Source: Leucoraja erinacea (taxonomy: Eukaryota). Taken from it: a DNA stretch of 45,644 nt. The notes beneath the pieces are model-generated. The model did no database searches, was not told the origin of the DNA, and worked only from the letters and a program-made list of their open reading frames with translations. Shown here one piece after another: positions 21,200 through 33,032 of this stretch (the stretch's first letter is position 1; each line of letters begins with the position of its first letter). Location of the stretch: positions 186,001-231,644 of the forward strand of contig NC_073394.1 in assembly GCF_028641065.1 (NCBI RefSeq). Direction: 5' to 3'. A program made the translations under genes and the position numbers.

Positions 21200-21295
21200 T
21201 CAGGTCAGGATGTCCTGAGCCTGATGCTCCACTAGTAGCGCCACATTCTTCACATCTTCACACCAGCAATCCAACCGCTCCTTCATGCCTTTAAT
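21200..21295 (-). CDS. PSMD13: PSMD13 exon 13 coding part IKGMKERL...EHQAQDILT*
   Basis: ttgcag| acceptor, TGA at 21202-21200. Confidence 0.96.
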
Positions 21296-23269
21296 CTGCA
21301 AAACAGTGCGGGGATTAGCGTCTGCGACCACAGCAGTAACGGGACGCTGGGGGTGGTAACGGGACAGATAGAACAGCGGGGAAACTAGAAGCTGCCACTG
21401 CAACATCGCCATTGTAACTCAAAGTCAGGTTTGGTGAAGTGATGGCAATGTCCACGTCCCCGGGGTTGGGCTTTATCTGTACCCCTCTCAACCCCGTCCC
21501 CACCATCCCAGGCTGGGTTTACCGGCCCCCTTGCCCAGGCCTGTGGAGAATCTCCCCCCCCCCACTTACTTGCTGCAGGTCGAGGACGCGCGGCTGCACC
21601 CACGTCATGTGCACGCGCTCATCCACCTCGTCAATGCTGCCGCGGACCAGCCCGACCGACAACGCCTTCATCACCAACAACTCCACCTGTAGATGGAGCA
21701 CAAGGTGGACGTCACTCACCCCACTGGGCAATGTACACCCCCCATCAGTAAACCCCGCCCCCGCCCCCACCCCTAAACCCCGCCCCCACCCATCACTAAA
21801 CCCTGCCCCCACCCCTAAACCCCGCCCCCCACCCATCACTAAACCCCGCCCCCCCTAACCCCGCCCCCCCATCACTAAACCCCGCCCCCACCCCTAAACC
21901 CCGCCCCCACCCATCACTAAACCCCCGCCCACACCCCCCACCCACTAAACCCCGCCCCCACCCCTAAACCCCGCCCCCACCCATCACTAAACCCCGCCCC
22001 CACACCCCCATCCCTAAACCCCGCCCCCCCACCCCTAAACCCCGCCCACACCCCCATCACTAAACCCCGCCCCCACCCATCACTAAACCCCGCCCACAGC
22101 CCCCATCACTAAACCCCCCGCCCCCCCCACCCCCATCACTAAACCCCCGCCCCCACCCATCACTAAACCCCCCCCCCACCCCCATCACTAAACCCCGCCC
22201 CCACCCCCATCACTAAACCCTGCCCCCACCCCCCATCACTACCCCGCCCCCACCCATCACAAACCCCCCCCATCCCTCACACTAAACCCCGCCCCCCCCA
22301 TCACACCGCCCACACCCCATCACTAAACCCCGCCCCCACCCCCCATCACTAAACCCCCGCACACAACCCCCATCACTAAACCCCCGCACACAACCCCCAT
22401 CACTAAACCCCCGCACACAACCCCCATCACTAAACCCCCGCACACAACCCCCATCACTAAACCCCCGCACACAACCCCCATCACTAAACCCTGCCCACAC
22501 CCCATCACTAAACCCCCGCCCACACCCCCATCACTAAACCCCGCCCACACCCCATCACTAAACCCCGCCCCCACACCCCATCACTAAACCCCGCCCCCAC
22601 CCCCATCACTAAACCCCCGCACACAACCCCCATCACTAAACCCCGCCCACACCCCCACCATGAAAACCACACCCCAACCCCTAAACACCACCCCCACCAT
22701 GAAACCCCGCCCACACCATAAACCCCGCCCACCTCATAAACCCCGCCCACAACCCCAAAACACCACCCCCACCATGAAACCCCGCCCACACTTCTAAACC
22801 CCGCCCACACTTCTAAACCCCGCCCACACTTCTAAACCCCGCCACCACCGACAACGCCTTCATCACCAACAACTCCACTTGCAGATGGAGCACAAGGTGG
22901 ATGTCACTCACCCCACGGGGCAATGCACACCCCCCATCACTAAACCCTGCCCCCACACCGCGGGACCCCCACACTCACCTCTGTGACGGGGACCTTGGCG
23001 ATGAGCGAGATTTCCTGGAAGCTGAGCTGCCGGTGATTAGCCGGGCGGGTGAAGGTCATCTACACAACAGCAACGGAGCAGCTTCAGCCGGGGATGTGAG
23101 TCAGCCCCGCCCCCCTCTACTCCCCACCCCCCCCTCCTCCTCCCCCCCCCTACTCCTCCCCACCCCCCTCCACCCCTACGCCCCAGCCTCCCTACTACCC
23201 CCCCCCCCTACTCCCCGCCCCCCCTACCGCCCCCCCGCCCCCCCTCCTCCTCCACCCCCCTACTCCCCC

Positions 23270-23311
<42 letters not shown>

Positions 23312-26300
23312 ACCCCCCCACTCCCACCCCCCCCTCCTCCTCCACCCCCCTACTCCTCCCCACCCCCCCCCTCCTCCCCCCCCCCACCACCCTCCTCCTC
23401 CACCCCCCCCCTACTCCTCCCCCCCCCCCCCACTCCCCCCACCCCCCCCACTCCCCGCCCCCCCTACTCCCCGCCCCCCCTACTCCCCCAACACCCCCCC
23501 ACTCCCCCGCCCCCCCTCCTCCCCAACCCCCTCCCACCCCCCCCCTCTCTACTCCCCCACCCCCCCGGCTCCTCCCCGTACTTTACCTCCATGAGGCAGA
23601 GCAGTTGGATTTTCTGCATTAGCCGCAGCTCGTTGGCCCTCAGGTCCGGCTACAACAAACCACACAAACCAGTCACTTTGTGGCACTCCCCCTCAAACCT
23701 TCGCCCTAACCCACACCTGTTGCCCCCACACACACACCTATTGCCCCCCACACCTGTTGCCCCCCCCACACAACCTGTTGCCCCCCACACACACAGACCT
23801 GTTGCCCCCCACACACACACACACACACTGTGCCCCCCCCACACACACCTGTTTCCCCCCACACACACAGACCTGTTGCCCCCCACACACACACACACTG
23901 TTGCCCCCCACACACACTGTTGCCCCCCCACACACACCTGTTGCCCCCCCCACACAACCTGTTGCCCCCCACACACACCTGTGTCCCCCCACCCCCACAC
24001 ACCTGTTGCCCCCCACACACACACACACCTGTTGCCCCCCCCACACCTGTTGCCCCCCCCACACAACCTGTTGCCCCTACCCACACACCTGTTGGCCCCC
24101 CTACCCACACCTGTTGGCCCCCCACCACACACCTGTTGTCCCCCACACACACACACCTGTTTCCCCCCACCCCCACACACCTGTTGCCCCCCCCACCCCC
24201 ACACACCTGTTGCCCCCCCCACCCCCACACACCTGTTGCCCCCCACACCCCCCACACACCTGTTGCCCCCCCCACCCCCACACACCTGTTGCCCCCAGCA
24301 TGTTTTCAGCGCCTGGAAGCGGTCCACGTTGCCGCTGTTAAAGGCGAACAATGTGTCGATCAGCCACTGCTTGTCTGTGGTTCGTAGCGACTCAAGGACC
24401 GGGTGCATCAACTGTGGACAGAGAACTCTCCCCGCGTCAGAGAACTCTCCGTGTCACCCACACCCTCCCCTCGTCACCCACACCCTCCCCTCGTCACCCA
24501 CACCCTCCCCTCGTCACCCACACCCTCCCTCTCACCCACACGTCACCCACCCCACACCCTCCCCTCGTCACTCTCCCCACCCACACCCTCCCCTCGTCAC
24601 CCACACCCTCCCCCTCGTCACCCACACCCCCCCCCTCGTCACCCACCCACCCCCTCACCCACCCACCCTCCCCTCGTCACCCACACCCCTCCCCTCACCC
24701 TCCCCGTGTCACCCACACCCTCCCCGTGTCACCCCACCCTCACCCACACCCTCCCCGTGTCACCCACACCCTCCCCCGTGTCACACCCACCCTCCCCGTG
24801 TCACCACCCACACCCTCCCCTCGTCACCCCACACCCTGTGTCCCCCACACCCCCTGTGTCACCCACCACTCCCCTCGTCACCCACACCCTCCCCTCGTCA
24901 CCCACACCCTCCCTGTGTCACCCACACTCTCCCTGTGTCACCCACACCCTCCCCGTGTCACCCACACCCTCCCCGTGTCACCCACCCACCCACACCCTCC
25001 CCTCGTCACCCACACCCTCCCCTCGTCACCCACACCCTCCCCTCACCCACACTCTCCCTGTGTCACCCACACCCCCACCCACACCCTCCCCTCGTCACCA
25101 CACCCACCCCTCGTCACCCACACCCTCCCTGTGTCACCCACACCGTCCCCTCGTCACCCACACCCTCCCCGTCGTCACCCACACCCTCCCCGTGTCACCC
25201 ACACCCTCCCCCTCGTCACCCACACCCTCCCCTCGTCACCCACACCCTCCCCTCGTCACCCACACCCTCCCCTCGTCACCCACACCCTCCCCTCGTCACC
25301 CACACCCTCCCCTCGTCACCCACACCCTCCCCTCGTCACCCAATCCTGCACCACTCCCCCACCAGTGGCCCCACCCCCCATCTACTCACCAGCTCCCCGA
25401 AGTTGTAGACTCCCTCCCCCAGCAGCCCGGCCAGGCCCAGTGTGAACGCTCGCTCCTGGTGCTCTGCCACTGAACACACACACACACACACACACACACG
25501 TGTTAGTCCAGACCCCGTGTGAACACACACGCGTGTTTAGACCAGACCCCGTGTGAACACACACGCGTGTTTAGACCAGACCCCGTGTGAATACACACGC
25601 GTGTTTAGACCAGACCCCGTGTGAAACCCGTGGGCGGTGGGGGTGGAGTGAGGTGGGGGCTGGGGGGAGTGAGCTGTGGGGTGGGGCAGTGAGCTGTGGG
25701 GTGGGGCAGTGAGCTGTGGGGTGGGGGGGGGGGGGGGGCAGTGAGGTTGGGCGTGGGGGGCTGTGGGCAAGTGAGGTGGGGGAGGGCTGCTGTTACCGGG
25801 CAGATCTTTGATGTCGATGCAGCCCAGGAATCGCAGGGCGTCGCGGTAGTAAGAGGCGTAGTTGCCGACGATCTGGTAGTACTTGCTGGACAGGTCGTAG
25901 AAGCGGCCGTGCACCGTGGTGATGCCCGGCAGAGCGGTCAACATCTCGTCCACCTCCTCGATCGTTTTCTGGAACAAAACCAGTGGCGTGAGGCACACGG
26001 ACACGTCACACGAACATGGACACGCACACACACGGACATGGACACGGACCCTGTCACACGGACATGTCACGAACCAACACGGACACGTCACGCACACACA
26101 CGGACACTGGTCTGACACCCGCACAAACATACATTGGGCACACAGCCCGTCACACACATGGACACACAACGAGCACGGATCCGTCTCACATGCATGAACA
26201 CGCAAACCCAGTCATACATGCATAAACACGCAACGGTCACGGGTCCGTCACACCCAACATCTGCCCTGCAAACACCCCCCCCCCCACCCCCCCGGGTATG

Positions 26301-29300
26301 GAATATGCCCTACATCTCTCCCCGCCCCCTCCCCCCACCTGCCTTCTCCTCAAAATGTTTGACACCCAGATTAAGCAAGTATCTGTCAATCTCCGCTGTT
26401 AAAATGCCCATTGCCGTGGCCACCACAGCCGTCTGTGGCAATGAATTCCAGATTCACCACAAACTACTCGCTTCACACCTGCAGCAGAAACTCGATTAAC
26501 TGACCCTGCAGCTCGTTCAGGGAACAATATCTGCTGTAACTCTACCTTGGTGACTGGGAGATCCCCCACATTCAACTTCAGCGCTCCAATGGCTGTTTTA
26601 CATAGGATCACGGCCTCATCACTCGACTTGACCTGAATGAAGAAAAGTTGGTGAAATAAATATCATAGTACTATACCTACTAAACCATGTGCAGTGGAAA
26701 GCAACAAATTCACCTTTTCTCTCGTCTTTTCCAAAAATGTCAAAGCCACATTAGGATCTGCAGTGAAACAAACAACTTCAGAAAAGTGATCAACATCTTA
26801 AGCTTTACAGGATACATAAAATTGTTAATCCTCAGCACATCCTGCTTGTGCGACACTGGTAACATGGAACAGAAGAACACCAGACCACACAGTAAACAGA
26901 AGATGCACAAACAACTCCGATCAGGCAGCATCTGTGGAGAGAGGATTAACGAGAGGGGTCAGGATTGCCGGGGATATGTAGACGAGGTTGCATTCACAAC
27001 ATCTCAAAGCCTGACAGATGTCAGTGGTTGCACACCTGGAACAGCCCAGGTGAGGGGCTCAATGTGGAGTTAGCCCACCTGGAACCAACATGGAATAGCT
27101 CACCTCCCCTCCCCTCCCCAAACTCTAACCCCTCCATTCCCCAGCTCAACCTCTCCCCAGCCTCTACCCAACCCTCCTGCCTCCACCTCCCCCCCCCCAG
27201 CTCAACTTTCTTCTCCCCCCCACCTCTCCCCAGTCTCTACCCAACCCCCCTGCCTCCACTTCCCCCCAGCACAACCCTCTCCCCCCCACCTCTCCCCAGC
27301 CTCTACCCAACCACCTGTCTCCACCTCCCACCCACCTCTCCCCTGCCTCTACCCCCCACTCTCATCTCCCCTCCCCCCACTCCAGTCACTCACCCGTCAT
27401 CTGCCGCACCACGTGTAAAACGATCTCGACGAGGGACAGAGGGTTGATCCTGTAACAGTTACAAAGGCTTTAACCCACAATATCGATTTCCCGATTGTTG
27501 CTCCCACCTGCCAAGCAACGTTGCTACGAGAAGCTGCATTTCCTGCACAGCGCTGGGAATGTGAGCTGCAGGGAAAGGGCTCAAGGACCTAGTACTCACC
27601 ACATGCACAACTGTGGCAGAGTGGTGAACATTTAGAGTGAGCTGCTTGAGAATGAAGTGGTGGCAGATACAATCACAACGTTAAAGGCATTTGGAGAGGA
27701 AAGGAGGAATGTAGAACGGTGAGTCAAGTTGAAGGATTTGGAATATTGGGAAGGTTGTTAAACAGAAGAGATTCGCCAGGATATTACCTGGGCTTGCAGG
27801 CTCAAGTTTGTGACATTTTCAATAGGCTGTTTCTTTGGAGCATTGAGGGGGGTGATCTTATCGAGGTGTACAAGATCACAAGGGGCATGGATAAAGCAAA
27901 CGCTCACAGTCTATTCCCCCAGGGCAGAGGATTCTAAAACTAAAGGGCACAGGCTTCAGGTGAGAGAGGTAGAGGGTATGGGCTATAGGAGAGAAGGGTA
28001 GAGGGCACAGACTTCAGGTGAGAAGGGAGAGATTTATGAGGATACTCGAGGGAACTTTGTCACTCATTGGGTAGTCCATATGAGTTGTTCGCGGAACTGC
28101 AGAAGCCGGTACAATTTTGATTTTTAAAAGCCTTGGACCAGATATTTGGATAGGAAGGCTTTAGAGGGATCGGGAGCAAATCCCAGTCTATGGACAAGGT
28201 GGGAACAAGAGCCTGTATAATCATCTGAACTTTAATGAGCGGCCTTGAAAAAATGGTGCAATAAATTTAAAACGGTAATATTCATGAATGAAGAGCAATA
28301 AAAGTCTCACCTGTGTTCAAATTCACCGATGAAATTCTCATACAGCTGAAAGAGAATAATTCCCAGTTACAGCGGCAACAACAGCAGGTTGGACAGGTTA
28401 GGGTCAGGGTTATGGTGGGTGACGAGGTCCTACCTTGATCAGCCCGTCACCTGTGGCGAAGCAGGTATTCTGCACAAAGGTCAGCAGTTCCACGGTCAGC
28501 TGGTGCCAGAGCCTGTGGTGCAACGGGACAGAGTGAGGGAGGCAGACACACGTGACCCACGCAGAGACGTGACACACGCAGACATGGAGCGTGACGTGAC
28601 ACACGCAGACACGGAGCGTGACGTGACACGGGCAGAGGGAGCATGACGTGACACAAGCAGACATGGAGCGTGACGTGACACACGCAGACACGGAGCGTGA
28701 TGTGACACACGCAGACATGGAGCGTGACGTGACACATGCAGACATGGAGCGTGACGTGACACATGCAGAGGGAGCATGACGTGACACATGCAGAGGGAGC
28801 ATGACGTGACACACACGGCAGACACAAGGATAGGACAACAGCCTCCCACGCATGACACATGCAGGGGACACGCAGACACAGGCTAGGACAGCAGCCATCC
28901 ACGCAGTGACCAGACACGCAGGAACACAGACATGGGACTAGGATAGCAGTTTCCACCGAGCTTGACGTGAAGCATGTGGCTGACACGCAGCAACCTCCCA
29001 CATAGGAACATGTGACACACGCAGCAGCACATGACACATGCAGGGGATACAAGACAAGGCAGCAATGTCCCACACAATGTAACATGCCACATGCAATGGA
29101 CACACATCTGCTCCGAGTAACCGCAGAGTGAACATGCCATCGACCTACAGTCCCCACTGCCAGGACAGGCCACCAGGCGGCCGAGAGACCCTGGGCCTCA
29201 TCATTTCGACAGCAGCCCCCACCTGGTCGGTGTGGTAGTTACAGCAGCCGGTCCAACATTCCCAGACAAGGCCCGGCCATGGGCTCAGCCCAGAGGCACC

Positions 29301-32300
29301 GGCCGACCAGGCCAAACGTCAGCCTGGCGATGGGGGGTGGGGGCTAGAGTAACTCGGGAGAACAGGGCCCATTAAAGTACAAAGTATTCATCCATGTGTG
29401 GAGCCACAGGAGATGGAGGAGGAAGAGTGAAGTGAATATTTGTTGTCTGTATTTACTATGTCGAAAGACATGGATACTGGGAACACCAGGATGTAAATAG
29501 TGAAGTCCACATTACAGAAGGAGGAGATCTCAGAGGACCCAGACCTGATCAAGTGAATCCTGGGCCATTGTGGGAAATGAGGGGAGAGTTTTCAGAGTCA
29601 GTGAGCCCACATGTAAACTGGGCGATGATTTTGCTGAACATCTCCGCTCAGTCCGCCTGGACCTACCTGATCTCCCAGTTGTAAACACTCTAATTCTTCT
29701 TCCCATTCCCACACAGACCATTCTGTCCTAGGCCTCCTCCATTGTTAGAGTGAGGCTAAACATAAATTGGAGGAACAGCACCTCATATTTTTCTTGGGCA
29801 GCTTACAGCCCAGTGGTATGAATATTGATTTTTCTCACCAAGTAACCCCGGCATTCCCTCTCTCTCCATCCCTCCTCCACCCGAGTCGCACTAGCTTCTC
29901 GTTTTCACCTTACAAACAGCTAACAATGGCCTATTTCCTTTGTCAGCTTTACTTTTTGGTCTATCTTACATTCATTGCAGTGTTAGCTGTGAGGAGGATG
30001 CTAGGATCCAGCTGCTACAGTCAGGCAAACACCTCCGTTGCCATGCTGTGAGAACGGAGAGGTTGAGAAGGAGTTTCTTCCCAGAGGCCATTAGGACAGT
30101 AAACTCCTACCTCACCAGGGACTAACTTTACTGTACCATTCTACTGTTTTTTTTAATATTGCTGTTTTTTCCCTTTTTCCTTCCGCCCATAATATTTAAA
30201 ATGTAAAAGAATATGTGATTCTGTTCCATTCTGTTTGTAGTTTGTTTGGTTGTTTGTCTTTTTACACAAAGTCCGCAAGCATTGCCACTTTTCATTTCAC
30301 TGCACATCTCAAATGTGTATGTGACAAATAAATTTGACTAGGAGGCTGCAAGGTGACTTGGATAGGTTGGGTGAGTGGGCAAATGCATGGCAGATACAGT
30401 ATAATGTGAATAAATGTGAGGTTATCCACCTTTGTGGCAAAAACAGGAAAGTAGACTATTAACTGAATGGTGGGGGGTGAGGGTGAGGGTGAGGGTGAGG
30501 GTGAGGAGGGTGGGGGTGAGGGTGGGGGTTAGGGTCAGGGGTAGTGTTAGGGTTAGGGTTAGGGTTAGGGTTGGGGGTGAGGGTTAGGGGTAGGGTTAGG
30601 GAGAGGTGTAGTGTGCGGGGTTGGTGGAGGGTCAGGGCGGGGGTGAGGGTGGGGGTGAGAGTGGGGGGTGAAGGGTGGGGGTGAAGGTGGGGGTGAAGGT
30701 GGGGGTGGGGGTGAGGGTGGGGGGTGAGAGTGGGGGTGAAGTTGGGGGGGGGGGAGAGAGGGGGGGTGGGGGTGAAGGTGGGGGTGGGGGTGAGAGTGGG
30801 GGTGGGGGTGAAGGTGGGGGTGGGGGTGAAGGTGGGGGGTGGTGGGTGGGGGTGGGGGTGAGGGTGGGGGTGAGAGTGGGGGAGGGGTGGGGTGTGAGGG
30901 TCAGGGTGAGGGGGGGGGTAAGGGTGGGGGGGGGGTGAAGGTGGGGTGGGGGTGAGAGTGGGGGTGAGGGGGGGTGGGGGGTGAGAGTGGGGGTGAAGGT
31001 GGGGGTGGGGGTGAGAGTGGGGGTGAAGGGGGGGGTGGGGGTGAGAGTGGGGGTGGTGGGGGTGGGGGTGGGGTGAGAGTGGGGGTGAAGGTGTTGGGGG
31101 GGGTGAGAGTGGGGGTGGGGGGGTGAGAGTGAGGGTGAGAGAGTGGGGGTGAGTGGGGGGGGGGTGTGGGGGGNNNNNNNNNNNNNNNNNNNNNNNNNNN
31201 NNNNNNNNNNNNNNNNNNNNNNNNNNNNNNNNNNNNNNNNNNNNNNNNNNNNNNNNNNNNNNNNNNNNNNNNNNNNNNNNNNNNNNNNNNNNNNNNNNNN
31301 NNNNGTGGGGGGTGAGAGTGGGGGTGGGGGGGGGGGGTGGGGGGGGTCGGGGTGGGGGTGGGGGTGAGAGTGGGGGTGGGGGGGGGGGTGGGGGTCGGTG
31401 GGGGTCGGGGGTCGGGGTCGGGGGGGGGGGGGGCCAGTGCCGGTGCGGGGTCTCACTTCTTGTTGTACAGCTCCTCCATGCTGTGCCAGTGGGGGCCGTG
31501 TCGGGGCGGGGCCGGGGGTCGGGGGCGGGGTCGGGGGTCGGGGGTCGGGGCCGGGTCGGGGGTCGGGGGTCGGGGCCGGGTCGGGGGGGTCGGGGTCCGG
31601 GTCGGGCCAGTGCCGGTGCGGGGGCCTCACTTCTTGTTGTACAGCTCCTCCATGCTGTGCCAGTGGGGGGTGTCGGGGCCGGGGTAGGGGGGTCGGGGGT
31701 CGGGGGTCGGGGGTCGGGCCGGGGGCCGGGGTCGGGTCGGGGGTCCGGGTCGGGGGTCGGGGCCAGTGCCAGTGCGGGGGCCTCACTTCTTGTTGTACAG
31801 CTCCTCCATGCTGTGCCAGTGTCGGGGCCGGGTCGGGGTCCGGGTCGGGGTCGGGGCCGGGTCGGGGGTCGGGGGTCGGGGGTCGGGGCCGGGGTCGGGG
31901 GTCGGGGGGGGTCGGGGGTCGGGGGTCGGGGTCGGGGTCGGGGCCAGTGCCGGTGCGGGGCCTCACTTCTTGTTGTTGTACAGCTCCATGCTGTGCAGTG
32001 CGGGTCGGGGGTCGGGGTCGGGGGTTCGGGGGTCGGGGTCGGGGTCGGTGCCGGGGCCCTCACTTCTTGTTGTACAGCTCCTCCATGGTGTCGGGGCCGG
32101 GCCAGTGCGGGGTCGGGTCGGGGGTCGGGCCGGGTCGGGGTCGGGGGGGTCGGGGCCGGGCCCAGTGCCAGTGCGGGGGTCGGGTCGGGGGTCGGGGCCG
32201 GGTCGGGGTCGGGGTCGGGGCCGGGCGGGGGGGGTCGGGTCGGGGCCGGGTCGGGGTCGGGGTCGGGGGTGCCAGTGCCGGTGCGGGGTCTCACTTCTTG

Positions 32301-32853
32301 TTGTACAGCTCCTCCATGCTGTGCCAGTGGGGGTCGGGTCGGGGCGGGGGTCGGGTCGGTGCCGGTGGGGGTCGGGGGTCGGGGTCGGGGCCGGGGTCGG
32401 GGCCGGTGCGCGGGGCCTCACTTCTTGTTGTACAGCTCCTCCATGCTGTGCCAGTGGGGGCCGGGTCGGTGTCGGGGGGGGCGGGGGTCGGGGTCGAGGG
32501 CCAGTGCCTCACTTCTTGTTGTACAGCTCCTCCATGCTGTGCCAGTGCGGGGGGGTCGGGGCCGGGGTCGGGTCGGGGCGGAGGGGCCGGGGTCGGGGGT
32601 CGGGGCCGGGGCCGGGGCCGGGGCCGGGGTCGGGGGGGTCGGGCCGGTGTCGGGGTCGGGGTCGGGGCCGGGTGGGGGGGGTGTTGGGGTCGGGGTCGGG
32701 GGTCGGGGGTCGGGGGGTCCGGGGCCGGGGCCAGTGCCGGGCGGGGGCCTCACTTCTTGTTGTACAGCTCCTCCATGCTGTGCCAGTGCGGGCCGAGCTC
32801 GGTGGTCTCGCGCTGCTCTGTTGCTGCTGCAGGAAAGCGCTGACATCCCGCAT
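21200..32853 (-). CDS. PSMD13: 26S proteasome non-ATPase regulatory subunit 13 (Rpn9): complement join of 32754..32853, 28434..28512, 28311..28345, 27394..27449, 26714..26757, 26546..26632, 25797..25968, 25390..25469, 24286..24411, 23587..23649, 22979..23059, 21570..21686, 21200..21295
   Basis: 13 exons with GT-AG ends; the translation matches PSMD13 throughout ([66 protein letters not shown]). It is 378 aa if one missing base in exon 1 is restored. Confidence 0.97.
21570..21686 (-). CDS. PSMD13: PSMD13 exon 12 [13 protein letters not shown]...[11 protein letters not shown]
   Basis: ctacag| acceptor, |GTAAGT donor. Confidence 0.96.
21735..22845. repeat. Minisatellite (ccccatcactaaaccccgcc..) filling PSMD13 intron 11
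   Basis: Dozens of units of about 20-27 nt. Confidence 0.92.
22979..23059 (-). CDS. PSMD13: PSMD13 exon 11 [27 protein letters not shown]
   Basis: gtgtag| acceptor, |GTGAGT donor. Confidence 0.95.
23100..23575. repeat. Poly-C/CT low-complexity tract in PSMD13 intron 10
   Basis: Direct reading. Confidence 0.9.
23587..23649 (-). CDS. PSMD13: PSMD13 exon 10 [21 protein letters not shown]
   Basis: ttgtag| acceptor, |GTAAAG donor. Confidence 0.95.
23710..24296 (-). repeat. Minisatellite made of the exon 9 3' end plus donor (GGGGGCAACAG|GTGTGTG), PSMD13 intron 9
   Basis: Roughly two dozen copies of cacacctgttgccccc and variants. Confidence 0.92.
24286..24411 (-). CDS. PSMD13: PSMD13 exon 9 LMHPVLESL...KTCWGQQ
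   Basis: ccacag| acceptor, CAG|GTGTGT donor. Confidence 0.95.
24450..25345. repeat. 20-bp minisatellite (cctcgtcacccacaccctcc) in PSMD13 intron 8
   Basis: Near-perfect units at 25210-25340. Confidence 0.92.
25390..25469 (-). CDS. PSMD13: PSMD13 exon 8 [27 protein letters not shown]
   Basis: (TG)n-ttcag| acceptor, |GTGAGT donor. Confidence 0.96.
25495..25626. repeat. About 34-bp tandem repeat x4 (gtgtgaacacacacgcgtgtttagaccagacccc)
   Basis: Direct reading. Confidence 0.85.
25797..25968 (-). CDS. PSMD13: PSMD13 exon 7 [10 protein letters not shown]...[11 protein letters not shown]
   Basis: ttccag| acceptor, G|GTAACA donor. Confidence 0.96.
26546..26632 (-). CDS. PSMD13: PSMD13 exon 6 [29 protein letters not shown]
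   Basis: ttcag| acceptor, |GTAGAG donor. Confidence 0.96.
26714..26757 (-). CDS. PSMD13: PSMD13 exon 5 [15 protein letters not shown]
   Basis: ctgcag| acceptor, |GTGAAT donor. Confidence 0.95.
27394..27449 (-). CDS. PSMD13: PSMD13 exon 4 [18 protein letters not shown]
   Basis: ttacag| acceptor, |GTGAGT donor. Confidence 0.95.
28311..28345 (-). CDS. PSMD13: PSMD13 exon 3 [12 protein letters not shown]
   Basis: ttcag| acceptor, |GTGAGA donor, 35 nt. Confidence 0.95.
28434..28512 (-). CDS. PSMD13: PSMD13 exon 2 [26 protein letters not shown]
   Basis: cacag| acceptor, |GTAGGA donor, 79 nt. Confidence 0.96.
28545..29100. repeat. CA-rich minisatellite (cgtgacgtgacacacgcagacatggag) next to the PSMD13 exon 2 acceptor
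   Basis: Units of about 27 nt, decaying toward 29100. Confidence 0.85.
30010..30340 (+). mobile_element. Rex1/Babar-type LINE 3' end
   Basis: [10 protein letters not shown]...[19 protein letters not shown] plus a T-rich tail. Confidence 0.6.
30470..31430. repeat. G-rich low-complexity tract including (TTAGGG)4 at 30547-30570 and an assembly gap (N 31174-31304)
   Basis: Direct reading. Confidence 0.9.
31430..32790 (-). repeat. Array of PSMD13 exon 1 3' end plus donor copies separated by (GGGGTC)-type spacers
   Basis: ctcacttcttgttgtacagctcctccatgctgtgccagtg starts at 31452, 31626, 31782, 31962 (variant), 32059 (truncated), 32290, 32417, 32508 and 32749 (true exon end). Confidence 0.95.
32754..32853 (-). 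CDS. PSMD13: PSMD13 exon 1 ([14 protein letters not shown].../...[15 protein letters not shown]), apparent 1-nt deletion
   Basis: ATG at 32853 in GCCATCATG context; donor AA|GTGAGG; the two halves of the exon are in different frames. Confidence 0.85.
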
Positions 32854-33032
32854 GATGGCTGCCGGAAGTGAAGGGCCCGCTTCCGCTAGCGCAGGCGCGG
32901 CGGCTGTTACCGTAATACACCCAGTGAGGGGCCGGTCCCGCCCTTGTCCATTACAGAGGCGGCCTATCAGCGGGCGCGGCGTTACTGCGTTATTACGGTC
33001 GGCCTGTTGGCACGTGACGGCCAGCGCCGCAA
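32854..33032. promoter_or_regulatory. CpG-rich bidirectional promoter of PSMD13 (-) and SIRT3 (+)
   Basis: Lies between the head-to-head genes. Contains ETS/GABP-type CCGGAAGT (32862-32869), opposite-strand CTTCCG (32880-32885), GC box CCGCCC (32938-32943) and E-box CACGTGAC (33011-33018). A shared PSMD13/SIRT3 promoter is established in human. Confidence 0.7.

What the first reader, a model, noticed from the sequence alone, without database searches (positions are those of the whole stretch)
23650..24296. PSMD13 intron 9 is almost entirely an amplified exon-end/donor repeat
The intron consists of roughly two dozen copies (manual count, including variants) of GGGGGCAACAG|GTGTGTG, which is the last codons of exon 9 (W-G-Q-Q) plus its donor. 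The exon 9 frame also stays open through the whole intron until the TAG of the exon 10 acceptor. This is a second, independent donor-amplifying minisatellite in the same gene, and the true donor CAG|GTGTGT is no stronger than many of its copies.
Basis: seen in the sequence. Interest (0 to 1): 0.7.

Follow-up and report, generated by a model that had tools for sequence, protein, structure and literature searches.

The report
Donor-repeating minisatellite in skate PSMD13 intron
An intron of a skate proteasome gene is almost filled by 25 extra tandem copies of its own splice-donor junction, the assembled transcripts still use the first copy, and the same layout is already known from several human genes, so this is likely a tolerated repeat expansion rather than a new device.

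Summary
Observation confirmed. Intron 9 of PSMD13 (minus strand, 24285-23650, 636 nt) is 91% tandem repeat: 26 units counting the exon-9 end itself; 22 of the 25 intronic copies keep AG|GT and 12 have the same 9-mer as the true donor. The array is probably real: a DNA run from another organism code holds both of its ends. Two RNA-type contig sets from two studies join exon 9 to exon 10 at the first donor; rare use of later copies cannot be seen in contigs. The open frame is unremarkable (open in 3151 of 10000 unit permutations), depends on G-run lengths in a locally indel-prone assembly, and ends in a premature stop. The layout matches the human F7, CBS, ABCA7 type of exon/intron-spanning minisatellite, where the most upstream donor wins (PMC1557585). 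The context explains its presence: the gene lies about 0.2 Mb from a contig end where tandem arrays are 7.5 times denser than inside. New member of a known kind; low interest.

The parts
24286..24411 (-). PSMD13 exon 9 (126 nt, 42 codons, ends W-G-Q-Q)
   Evidence: PDB match to human PSMD13 217-258; RNA-type contig covers 24286-24412 with loose ends in exons 8 and 10
24280..24288 (-). authentic donor CAG|GTGTGT (intron starts at 24285), inside the first repeat unit
   Evidence: junction in X2 and X6
23712..24296 (-). minisatellite, 26 units of 17-30 nt: G-run + CAACAG|GT + (GT)n; 22 intronic copies with AG|GT, 12 identical to the true donor 9-mer
23650..23711 (-). unique 3' tail of intron 9 with the only acceptor (TAG); presumed to hold the branch point (inferred)
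   Evidence: tail adjacent to repeat units also in DNA runs X14 and X1
23587..23649 (-). PSMD13 exon 10 (63 nt)
   Evidence: tblastn; RNA-type contig X6
22847..22947 (-). single copy of the intron-11 acceptor region plus first 32 nt of exon 12, 95 of 101 identical, acceptor AG changed to AA (context)
21200..32853 (-). whole PSMD13 coding span, 13 exons; exons 2-13 translate to 344 of 344 residues of the RNA-type protein P0034

Best explanation
Intron 9 holds a tandem array whose first unit straddles the exon-9/intron-9 junction, and it likely grew by local duplication and unequal exchange in a repeat-prone chromosome-end region and is tolerated because splicing uses the most upstream donor. 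Shown: the array, its unit, 22 spare AG|GT sites, first-donor junctions in two RNA-type contigs, presence of both array ends in a second organism, high regional repeat density. Inferred: (1) the intron was short (about 85-110 nt: one unit plus the 60-nt tail); (2) a 20-26 nt piece covering the last 11 exon bases and the GT-repeat donor was duplicated, which leaves the exon intact because every new copy falls in the intron; (3) G-run and GT-run slippage diversified the units; (4) exon definition pairs the exon-9 acceptor with the nearest donor, as shown for human F7; (5) leakage to the next three copies would shift the frame and be removed by nonsense-mediated decay; (6) the 3' tail stays unique because branch point and acceptor cannot be reiterated harmlessly. 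The open frame is a by-product of a stop-poor G/T unit.
For: First-donor junction in X2 (study P2) and X6 (study P3); nine RNA-type runs plus those two hold 0.17 of the words, about the exonic share (weak). 7 of 7 cluster members, skates and rays, are 377-378 aa with WGQQ|PDL and no insertion. 97 array blocks in the terminal 431,644 bp against 6 in 200,000 bp of interior (22.5 vs 3.0 per 100 kb). 6 of 12 PSMD13 introns are over half tandem repeat, each with its own unit. Arrays in introns 8, 9, 10, 11 stop 41-60 nt before the acceptor, and the one duplicated acceptor has lost its AG. An unnamed vertebrate read-through (P0004) has only 36 codons between WGQQ and PDL, a short intron 9. 17 of 22 spare donors, including the nearest three, would put a stop in exon 10 or 11. 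F7 minigenes: upstream site used exclusively, even against stronger downstream copies (PMC1557585). GC-rich VNTRs are 21-fold enriched near human chromosome ends (PMC7608644 abstract).
Against: Only contigs, no raw RNA reads, were available, so minor use of later donors is untested; in human 6-16, CBS and ABCA7 the next one or two copies are used. 2 of 12 PSMD13 donors are amplified against 0 of 10 neighbouring donors examined, which leaves room for a gene-specific cause though the numbers are small. The array is kept in at least two organisms, compatible with either neutrality over a short time or selection. The ancestral short intron rests on one unnamed protein and on the intron's anatomy, not on a shark or ray genomic alignment.
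Confidence: 0.8

Rival explanations
1. The array is a splicing rheostat: longer or different alleles send more transcripts to downstream donors or to intron retention, which end in premature stops, and so tune PSMD13 dose by AS-NMD, as reported for ABCA7 and CBS.
For: 22 spare AG|GT sites, 12 identical to the true 9-mer; 17 of 22 frameshift. DNA run X1 has a different unit next to the tail than the window, so alleles or close relatives differ. ABCA7 retains one VNTR unit in a minor out-of-frame isoform (PMC5954066).
Against: Only first-donor junctions seen (2 of 2 RNA-type contigs). Two thirds of random offsets frameshift anyway (17 of 22 is near that). No length polymorphism measured.
Confidence: 0.1
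2. In-frame donors or read-through yield a protein with a Gly/Val/Cys-rich insert or tail.
For: Exon-9 frame open for 211 codons; 5 of 22 spare donors are in frame (+35, +43, +51, +109, +116 aa).
Against: Openness is expected (3151 of 10000 permutations); retention ends at the acceptor TAG, three junctions before the end of the gene; a search with exon 9 plus 61 read-through codons found 6 proteins, none matching beyond 48% of the query (lengths 56-181 aa only); exact frames depend on G-run lengths, and two neighbouring coding exons show assembly frameshifts against RNA-type proteins.
Confidence: 0.03
3. The CAG|GT in every unit acts as a ratchet point, so the intron is removed stepwise (recursive splicing).
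For: Each intact unit juxtaposes an AG and a GT.
Against: Each AG is preceded by a G-run and CAA, with no pyrimidine tract; the intron is only 636 nt, while recursive splicing is typical of very long introns (recalled).
Confidence: 0.02
4. The array is an assembly artefact.
For: The region has base-level indel errors: exon 1 is 100 nt where 98 are needed, and a SIRT3 exon is frameshifted against P0035. No laid contig spans the whole array.
Against: Units are diverged, not identical. DNA run X14 (organism C) has one contig with exon 9 plus the second copy and another with the tail followed by units; X1 has exon 10, tail and the first units in one contig (it may be the source sample, so not independent).
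Confidence: 0.04

Closest known systems
Human F7 intron 7 37-bp VNTR with 5' pseudo-sites (PMC1557585; abstract and passages read)
   Same: First unit spans the exon/intron boundary; donor reiterated with identical sequence; the upstream site is the one seen in transcripts.
   Different: Skate unit is shorter (17-30 nt), more degenerate, has 22 spare sites against 4-8, includes 11 exon bases against 4, and fills 91% of the intron.
Human 6-16 (25 pseudo-sites), CBS intron 13 (15-20 units), lamin B2 and PDGF intron 4 arrays (as summarised in the introduction of PMC1557585; originals not read)
   Same: Same layout and similar copy number; the lamin B2 array is titled as covering most of an intron and reiterating the exon/intron junction.
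   Different: In 6-16 and CBS two further sites are used; here no such use was seen, but it could not be excluded.
Human ABCA7 intron 18 25-bp VNTR (PMC5954066; passages read)
   Same: About 24 units of 25 bp, 592 bp, starting at the donor; almost the same size as the skate array.
   Different: ABCA7 unit begins at the GT rather than inside the exon; length variation and splicing effects are measured there and not here.
Minisatellite-filled short introns of high-recombination regions: mouse pseudoautosomal genes (10.1101/2022.03.26.485930, passages read); human subtelomeric GC-rich VNTRs (PMC7608644, abstract read)
   Same: GC-rich genes near a chromosome end with most introns occupied by tandem repeats.
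   Different: Recombination rate was not measured here, and no telomere array was seen at the contig start, so 'chromosome end' is inferred from position.

Membership tests
Exon/intron-spanning minisatellite with 5' pseudo-sites (F7/CBS/6-16 type) | First monomer spans the exon-intron boundary | tested here: met
   Array starts at 24296, 11 nt inside exon 9
Exon/intron-spanning minisatellite with 5' pseudo-sites (F7/CBS/6-16 type) | Donor sequence reiterated in the intron | tested here: met
   22 of 25 copies keep AG|GT, 12 identical 9-mers; 22 vs 0.03 in shuffles
Exon/intron-spanning minisatellite with 5' pseudo-sites (F7/CBS/6-16 type) | Most upstream donor is the main one used | tested here: met
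   2 of 2 RNA-type contigs laid; 7 of 7 cluster proteins without insertion. Major form only.
Exon/intron-spanning minisatellite with 5' pseudo-sites (F7/CBS/6-16 type) | Copy number varies between individuals (VNTR) | tested here: inconclusive
   X1 differs in the unit after 23736; X14 differs by small gaps; no contig spans the array
Exon/intron-spanning minisatellite with 5' pseudo-sites (F7/CBS/6-16 type) | Pseudo-sites are functional when the first is lost | not testable with these tools
   Needs a minigene
Intron born from a tandem duplication of an AG|GT proto-splice site | Intron is new and both splice sites come from the repeat unit | tested here: not met
   Acceptor lies in a unique 60-nt tail; six unnamed vertebrate read-through proteins (P0002, P0004-P0007, P0012) also leave the coding frame right after WGQQ, so the intron position is old
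Recursive-splicing ratchet points | AG|GT preceded by a pyrimidine tract in a long intron | tested here: not met
   G-run upstream of every AG, 636-nt intron; definition recalled

The most novel reading that the evidence does not exclude
Skate PSMD13 carries two independent donor arrays (22 spare donors in intron 9, 8 in intron 1) whose allele length sets the share of unproductive, NMD-bound transcripts of a single proteasome-lid subunit, and the intron-1 copies, each an AG plus 24 nt plus donor after a C-rich run, act as optional in-frame micro-exons. Together with the dead duplicated acceptor in intron 11 this would be a natural experiment showing that donors but not acceptors can be amplified, and a route from minisatellite to new exon in a cartilaginous fish.
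Probability: 0.08. Interest if true: 0.55.

Novelty: new member of a known kind. Interest (0 to 1): 0.2.

Why it matters
As it stands it is one more example of a described layout, outside mammals. Its use would be as a ready-made test of first-donor selection in a cartilaginous fish (12 identical competitors within 440 nt) and as an illustration of how short introns near a chromosome end are inflated by minisatellites. It would matter more only if allele length changed productive splicing of this proteasome subunit. I found no paper on this skate locus, which cover only the open library.

Tried and rejected
Open frame as a signal: rejected by permutation (the permutation keeps total length, so it does not include the one-in-three chance of the tail's frame). 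RNA structure masking the spare donors: exon 9-intron 9-exon 10 folds less well than all 20 shuffles (z +2.81). Classical G-quadruplex motif: 0 hits in intron 9 against 30 in intron 8. Dispersed repeat origin: the 16-nt unit core occurs only in this intron among about 630 kb of fetched DNA, and a G000 search gave one locus, though it skips simple repeats. SIRT3 5' array (33023-33811) as a third exon-end amplification: 0 copies of the 14-nt probe, and a similar unit recurs in another SIRT3 intron and at L039, so not counted. Regional census of donor arrays: 14 motif candidates among 103 blocks; Pfam on 112 of 132 flanking frames (20 wrong-frame or wrong-strand duplicates in the PSMD13/SIRT3 stretch dropped) recognised only 1 of 6 known PSMD13 exons given as controls, so the census is inconclusive. 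Cross-species alignment of intron 9: no relatives are held for this genome; X13, X17 and X18 gave only short repeat-like pieces or did not reach exon 9, no conclusion. No run is on record as RNA ('no RNA holder listed'; the RNA label is the tool's guess) and no raw reads were offered. MaxEntScan was not available; identity of 9-mers was used instead. The first exon table had four misplaced boundaries (exons 1, 4, 5, 8), corrected; intron coverage figures for those introns are off by a few bases.

Full report
What is there. The window encodes PSMD13 on the minus strand in 13 exons (32853-21200). Exon 9 (24411-24286) matches human PSMD13 residues 217-258, and the nearest named protein is the little-skate PSMD13-like protein P0001 (98% over this exon), so the organism is a skate. 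Exons 2-13 translate to 344 of 344 residues of the RNA-type protein P0034. Intron 9 is 24285-23650, 636 nt, phase 0.

The array. TRF reports 23712-24296, 25.7 copies, 77% matches. It starts 11 nt inside exon 9, covers 91% of the intron and leaves a 60-nt unique tail. It splits into 26 units of 17-30 nt (G-run, CAACAG|GT, GT-run): the exon-end unit and 25 intronic copies. Of the 25, 22 keep AG|GT and 12 have the same 9-mer as the true donor, so any 9-mer scoring scheme rates them equal. A 14-nt exon-end probe finds 22 copies against a mean of 0.03 in 100 shuffles. The same probe test over all 12 PSMD13 introns finds copies only in intron 9 and intron 1 (8 copies of a different, roughly 40-nt exon-1 end), and a single 101-nt copy of the intron-11 acceptor and exon-12 start, 95 of 101 identical, whose AG has become AA.

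Is it real? No laid contig spans the array, and the region has base-level errors: exon 1 is 100 nt where 98 are needed and a SIRT3 exon is frameshifted against P0035. But run X14, coded as a different organism and differing at 1 of 126 exon-9 bases, has one contig with exon 9 plus the second copy and another with the unique tail followed by units. Run X1 has exon 10, the tail and the first units in one contig and then a different unit than the window (it may be the source sample). The array is therefore most likely real and not private to this assembly; its exact length and G-run sizes are uncertain. Runs X13, X17 and X18 were uninformative on this point.

Which donor is used? In X2 (study P2) the 1 contig laid leaves exon 9 at 24286 and continues in exon 10. 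In X6 (study P3) the 1 contig laid enters exon 10 directly from the unique part of exon 9. Both runs are RNA by the tool's guess and are contigs, which drop rare forms, so this shows the major junction only. All 7 members of the protein cluster are 377-378 aa with WGQQ followed by PDL. If later donors were used, 17 of 22 would place a stop in exon 10 or 11, including the nearest three, and 5 would insert 35-116 residues; by the usual last-junction rule (recalled) the 17 would be NMD targets.

The open frame. It is true (first stop is codon 212 of 212) but ordinary. The intron has 7 stop triplets in all frames and a second frame is open for 192 of 211 codons. The exon-9 frame stays open in 3151 of 10000 unit permutations and in 2275 of 10000 trials with G-run jitter. 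Retention would end at the acceptor's TAG with three junctions still downstream. A protein search with the read-through found 6 proteins, none aligning past 48% of the query (lengths 56-181 aa only). An unnamed vertebrate also reads through its own short intron 9 of 36 codons (P0004).

Context. The window lies at 186-232 kb of a 41.9-Mb contig. The first 431,644 bp hold 97 tandem-array blocks against 6 in 200,000 bp sampled at four interior places, 22.5 against 3.0 per 100 kb; no telomere array is present at the contig start. Six of 12 PSMD13 introns are more than half repeat, each with another unit, and SIRT3 and RIC8A next door show the same filling. Arrays in introns 8-11 end 41-60 nt before the acceptor. 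Among donors I could place, 2 of 12 in PSMD13 and 0 of 10 in SIRT3, RIC8A and an ODF3-like gene are amplified; two of those ten exon ends are inferred from sequence only. A wider census failed for lack of sensitivity.

Mechanism. Shown: array, spare donors, first-donor major junction, regional repeat load. Inferred: a short ancestral intron, duplication of a 20-26 nt piece across the donor, growth by unequal exchange and slippage, tolerance because the exon pairs with its nearest donor and leakage is degraded, and protection of the 3' tail. I put 0.8 on this, 0.1 on a length-dependent splicing rheostat, and a few percent each on a translated insert, recursive splicing and artefact.

Comparison with what is known. 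[quoted passage not shown] PMC5954066 (passages) describes the ABCA7 25-bp VNTR, 592 bp in the reference, starting at the donor, with a minor isoform retaining one unit. The mouse pseudoautosomal preprint (passages; supplements closed) and PMC7608644 (abstract) document minisatellite-filled introns and GC-rich VNTR enrichment in high-recombination or subtelomeric regions. Searches listed nothing on this skate locus; some searches were on the general layout. The skate array meets three of five features of the F7 type, one is inconclusive and one untestable; it is not a newly gained intron.

Verdict. Observation confirmed, interpretation partly supported, new member of a known kind, interest 0.2. 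The boldest reading left open is a length-tuned AS-NMD switch plus repeat-born micro-exons in intron 1 (probability 0.08, interest 0.55 if true).

Noticed in passing
window 31440-32560 (minus): Most of the 8 intron-1 copies read C-rich run, CAG, 24 nt, donor: each could be an in-frame 8-codon micro-exon repeating the end of exon 1. P0034 shows no such insert.
   Followed up: partly
window 22847-22947 (minus): 101-nt duplicate of the intron-11 acceptor region and exon-12 start, 95 of 101 identical, with the acceptor AG changed to AA; a minisatellite lies between the two copies.
   Followed up: yes
window 32754-32853 and L027:1098-1197: PSMD13 exon 1 has 2 surplus bases and a SIRT3 exon is frameshifted relative to RNA-type proteins P0034 and P0035; probably assembly errors in this GC-rich region.
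   Followed up: partly
window 33000-45644 and L027, L030: SIRT3 lies head-to-head with PSMD13 on the plus strand, followed by RIC8A and an ODF3-like SHIPPO-repeat exon. The same gene neighbourhood lies near the tip of human 11p (recalled), so a chromosome-end position may be very old.
   Followed up: partly
window about 40170-40370 (minus): A short reading frame nested antisense in a SIRT3 intron resembles the second exon of an IFITM gene (recalled resemblance, seen, not searched).
   Followed up: no
window 33023-33811, L027:3784-4461, L039:594-999: Three arrays share a similar GC-rich unit, in opposite orientations within SIRT3, suggesting a dispersed seed rather than local origin.
   Followed up: partly
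window about 30540-30600: A few degenerate telomere-type hexamer repeats inside the C-rich array of intron 1.
   Followed up: no
L017:3125-3538, L021:4259-4658, L043:8-1399: Further arrays that begin at or repeat a donor-like 9-mer (16 and 9 exact copies in the first two); no exon could be confirmed upstream.
   Followed up: partly
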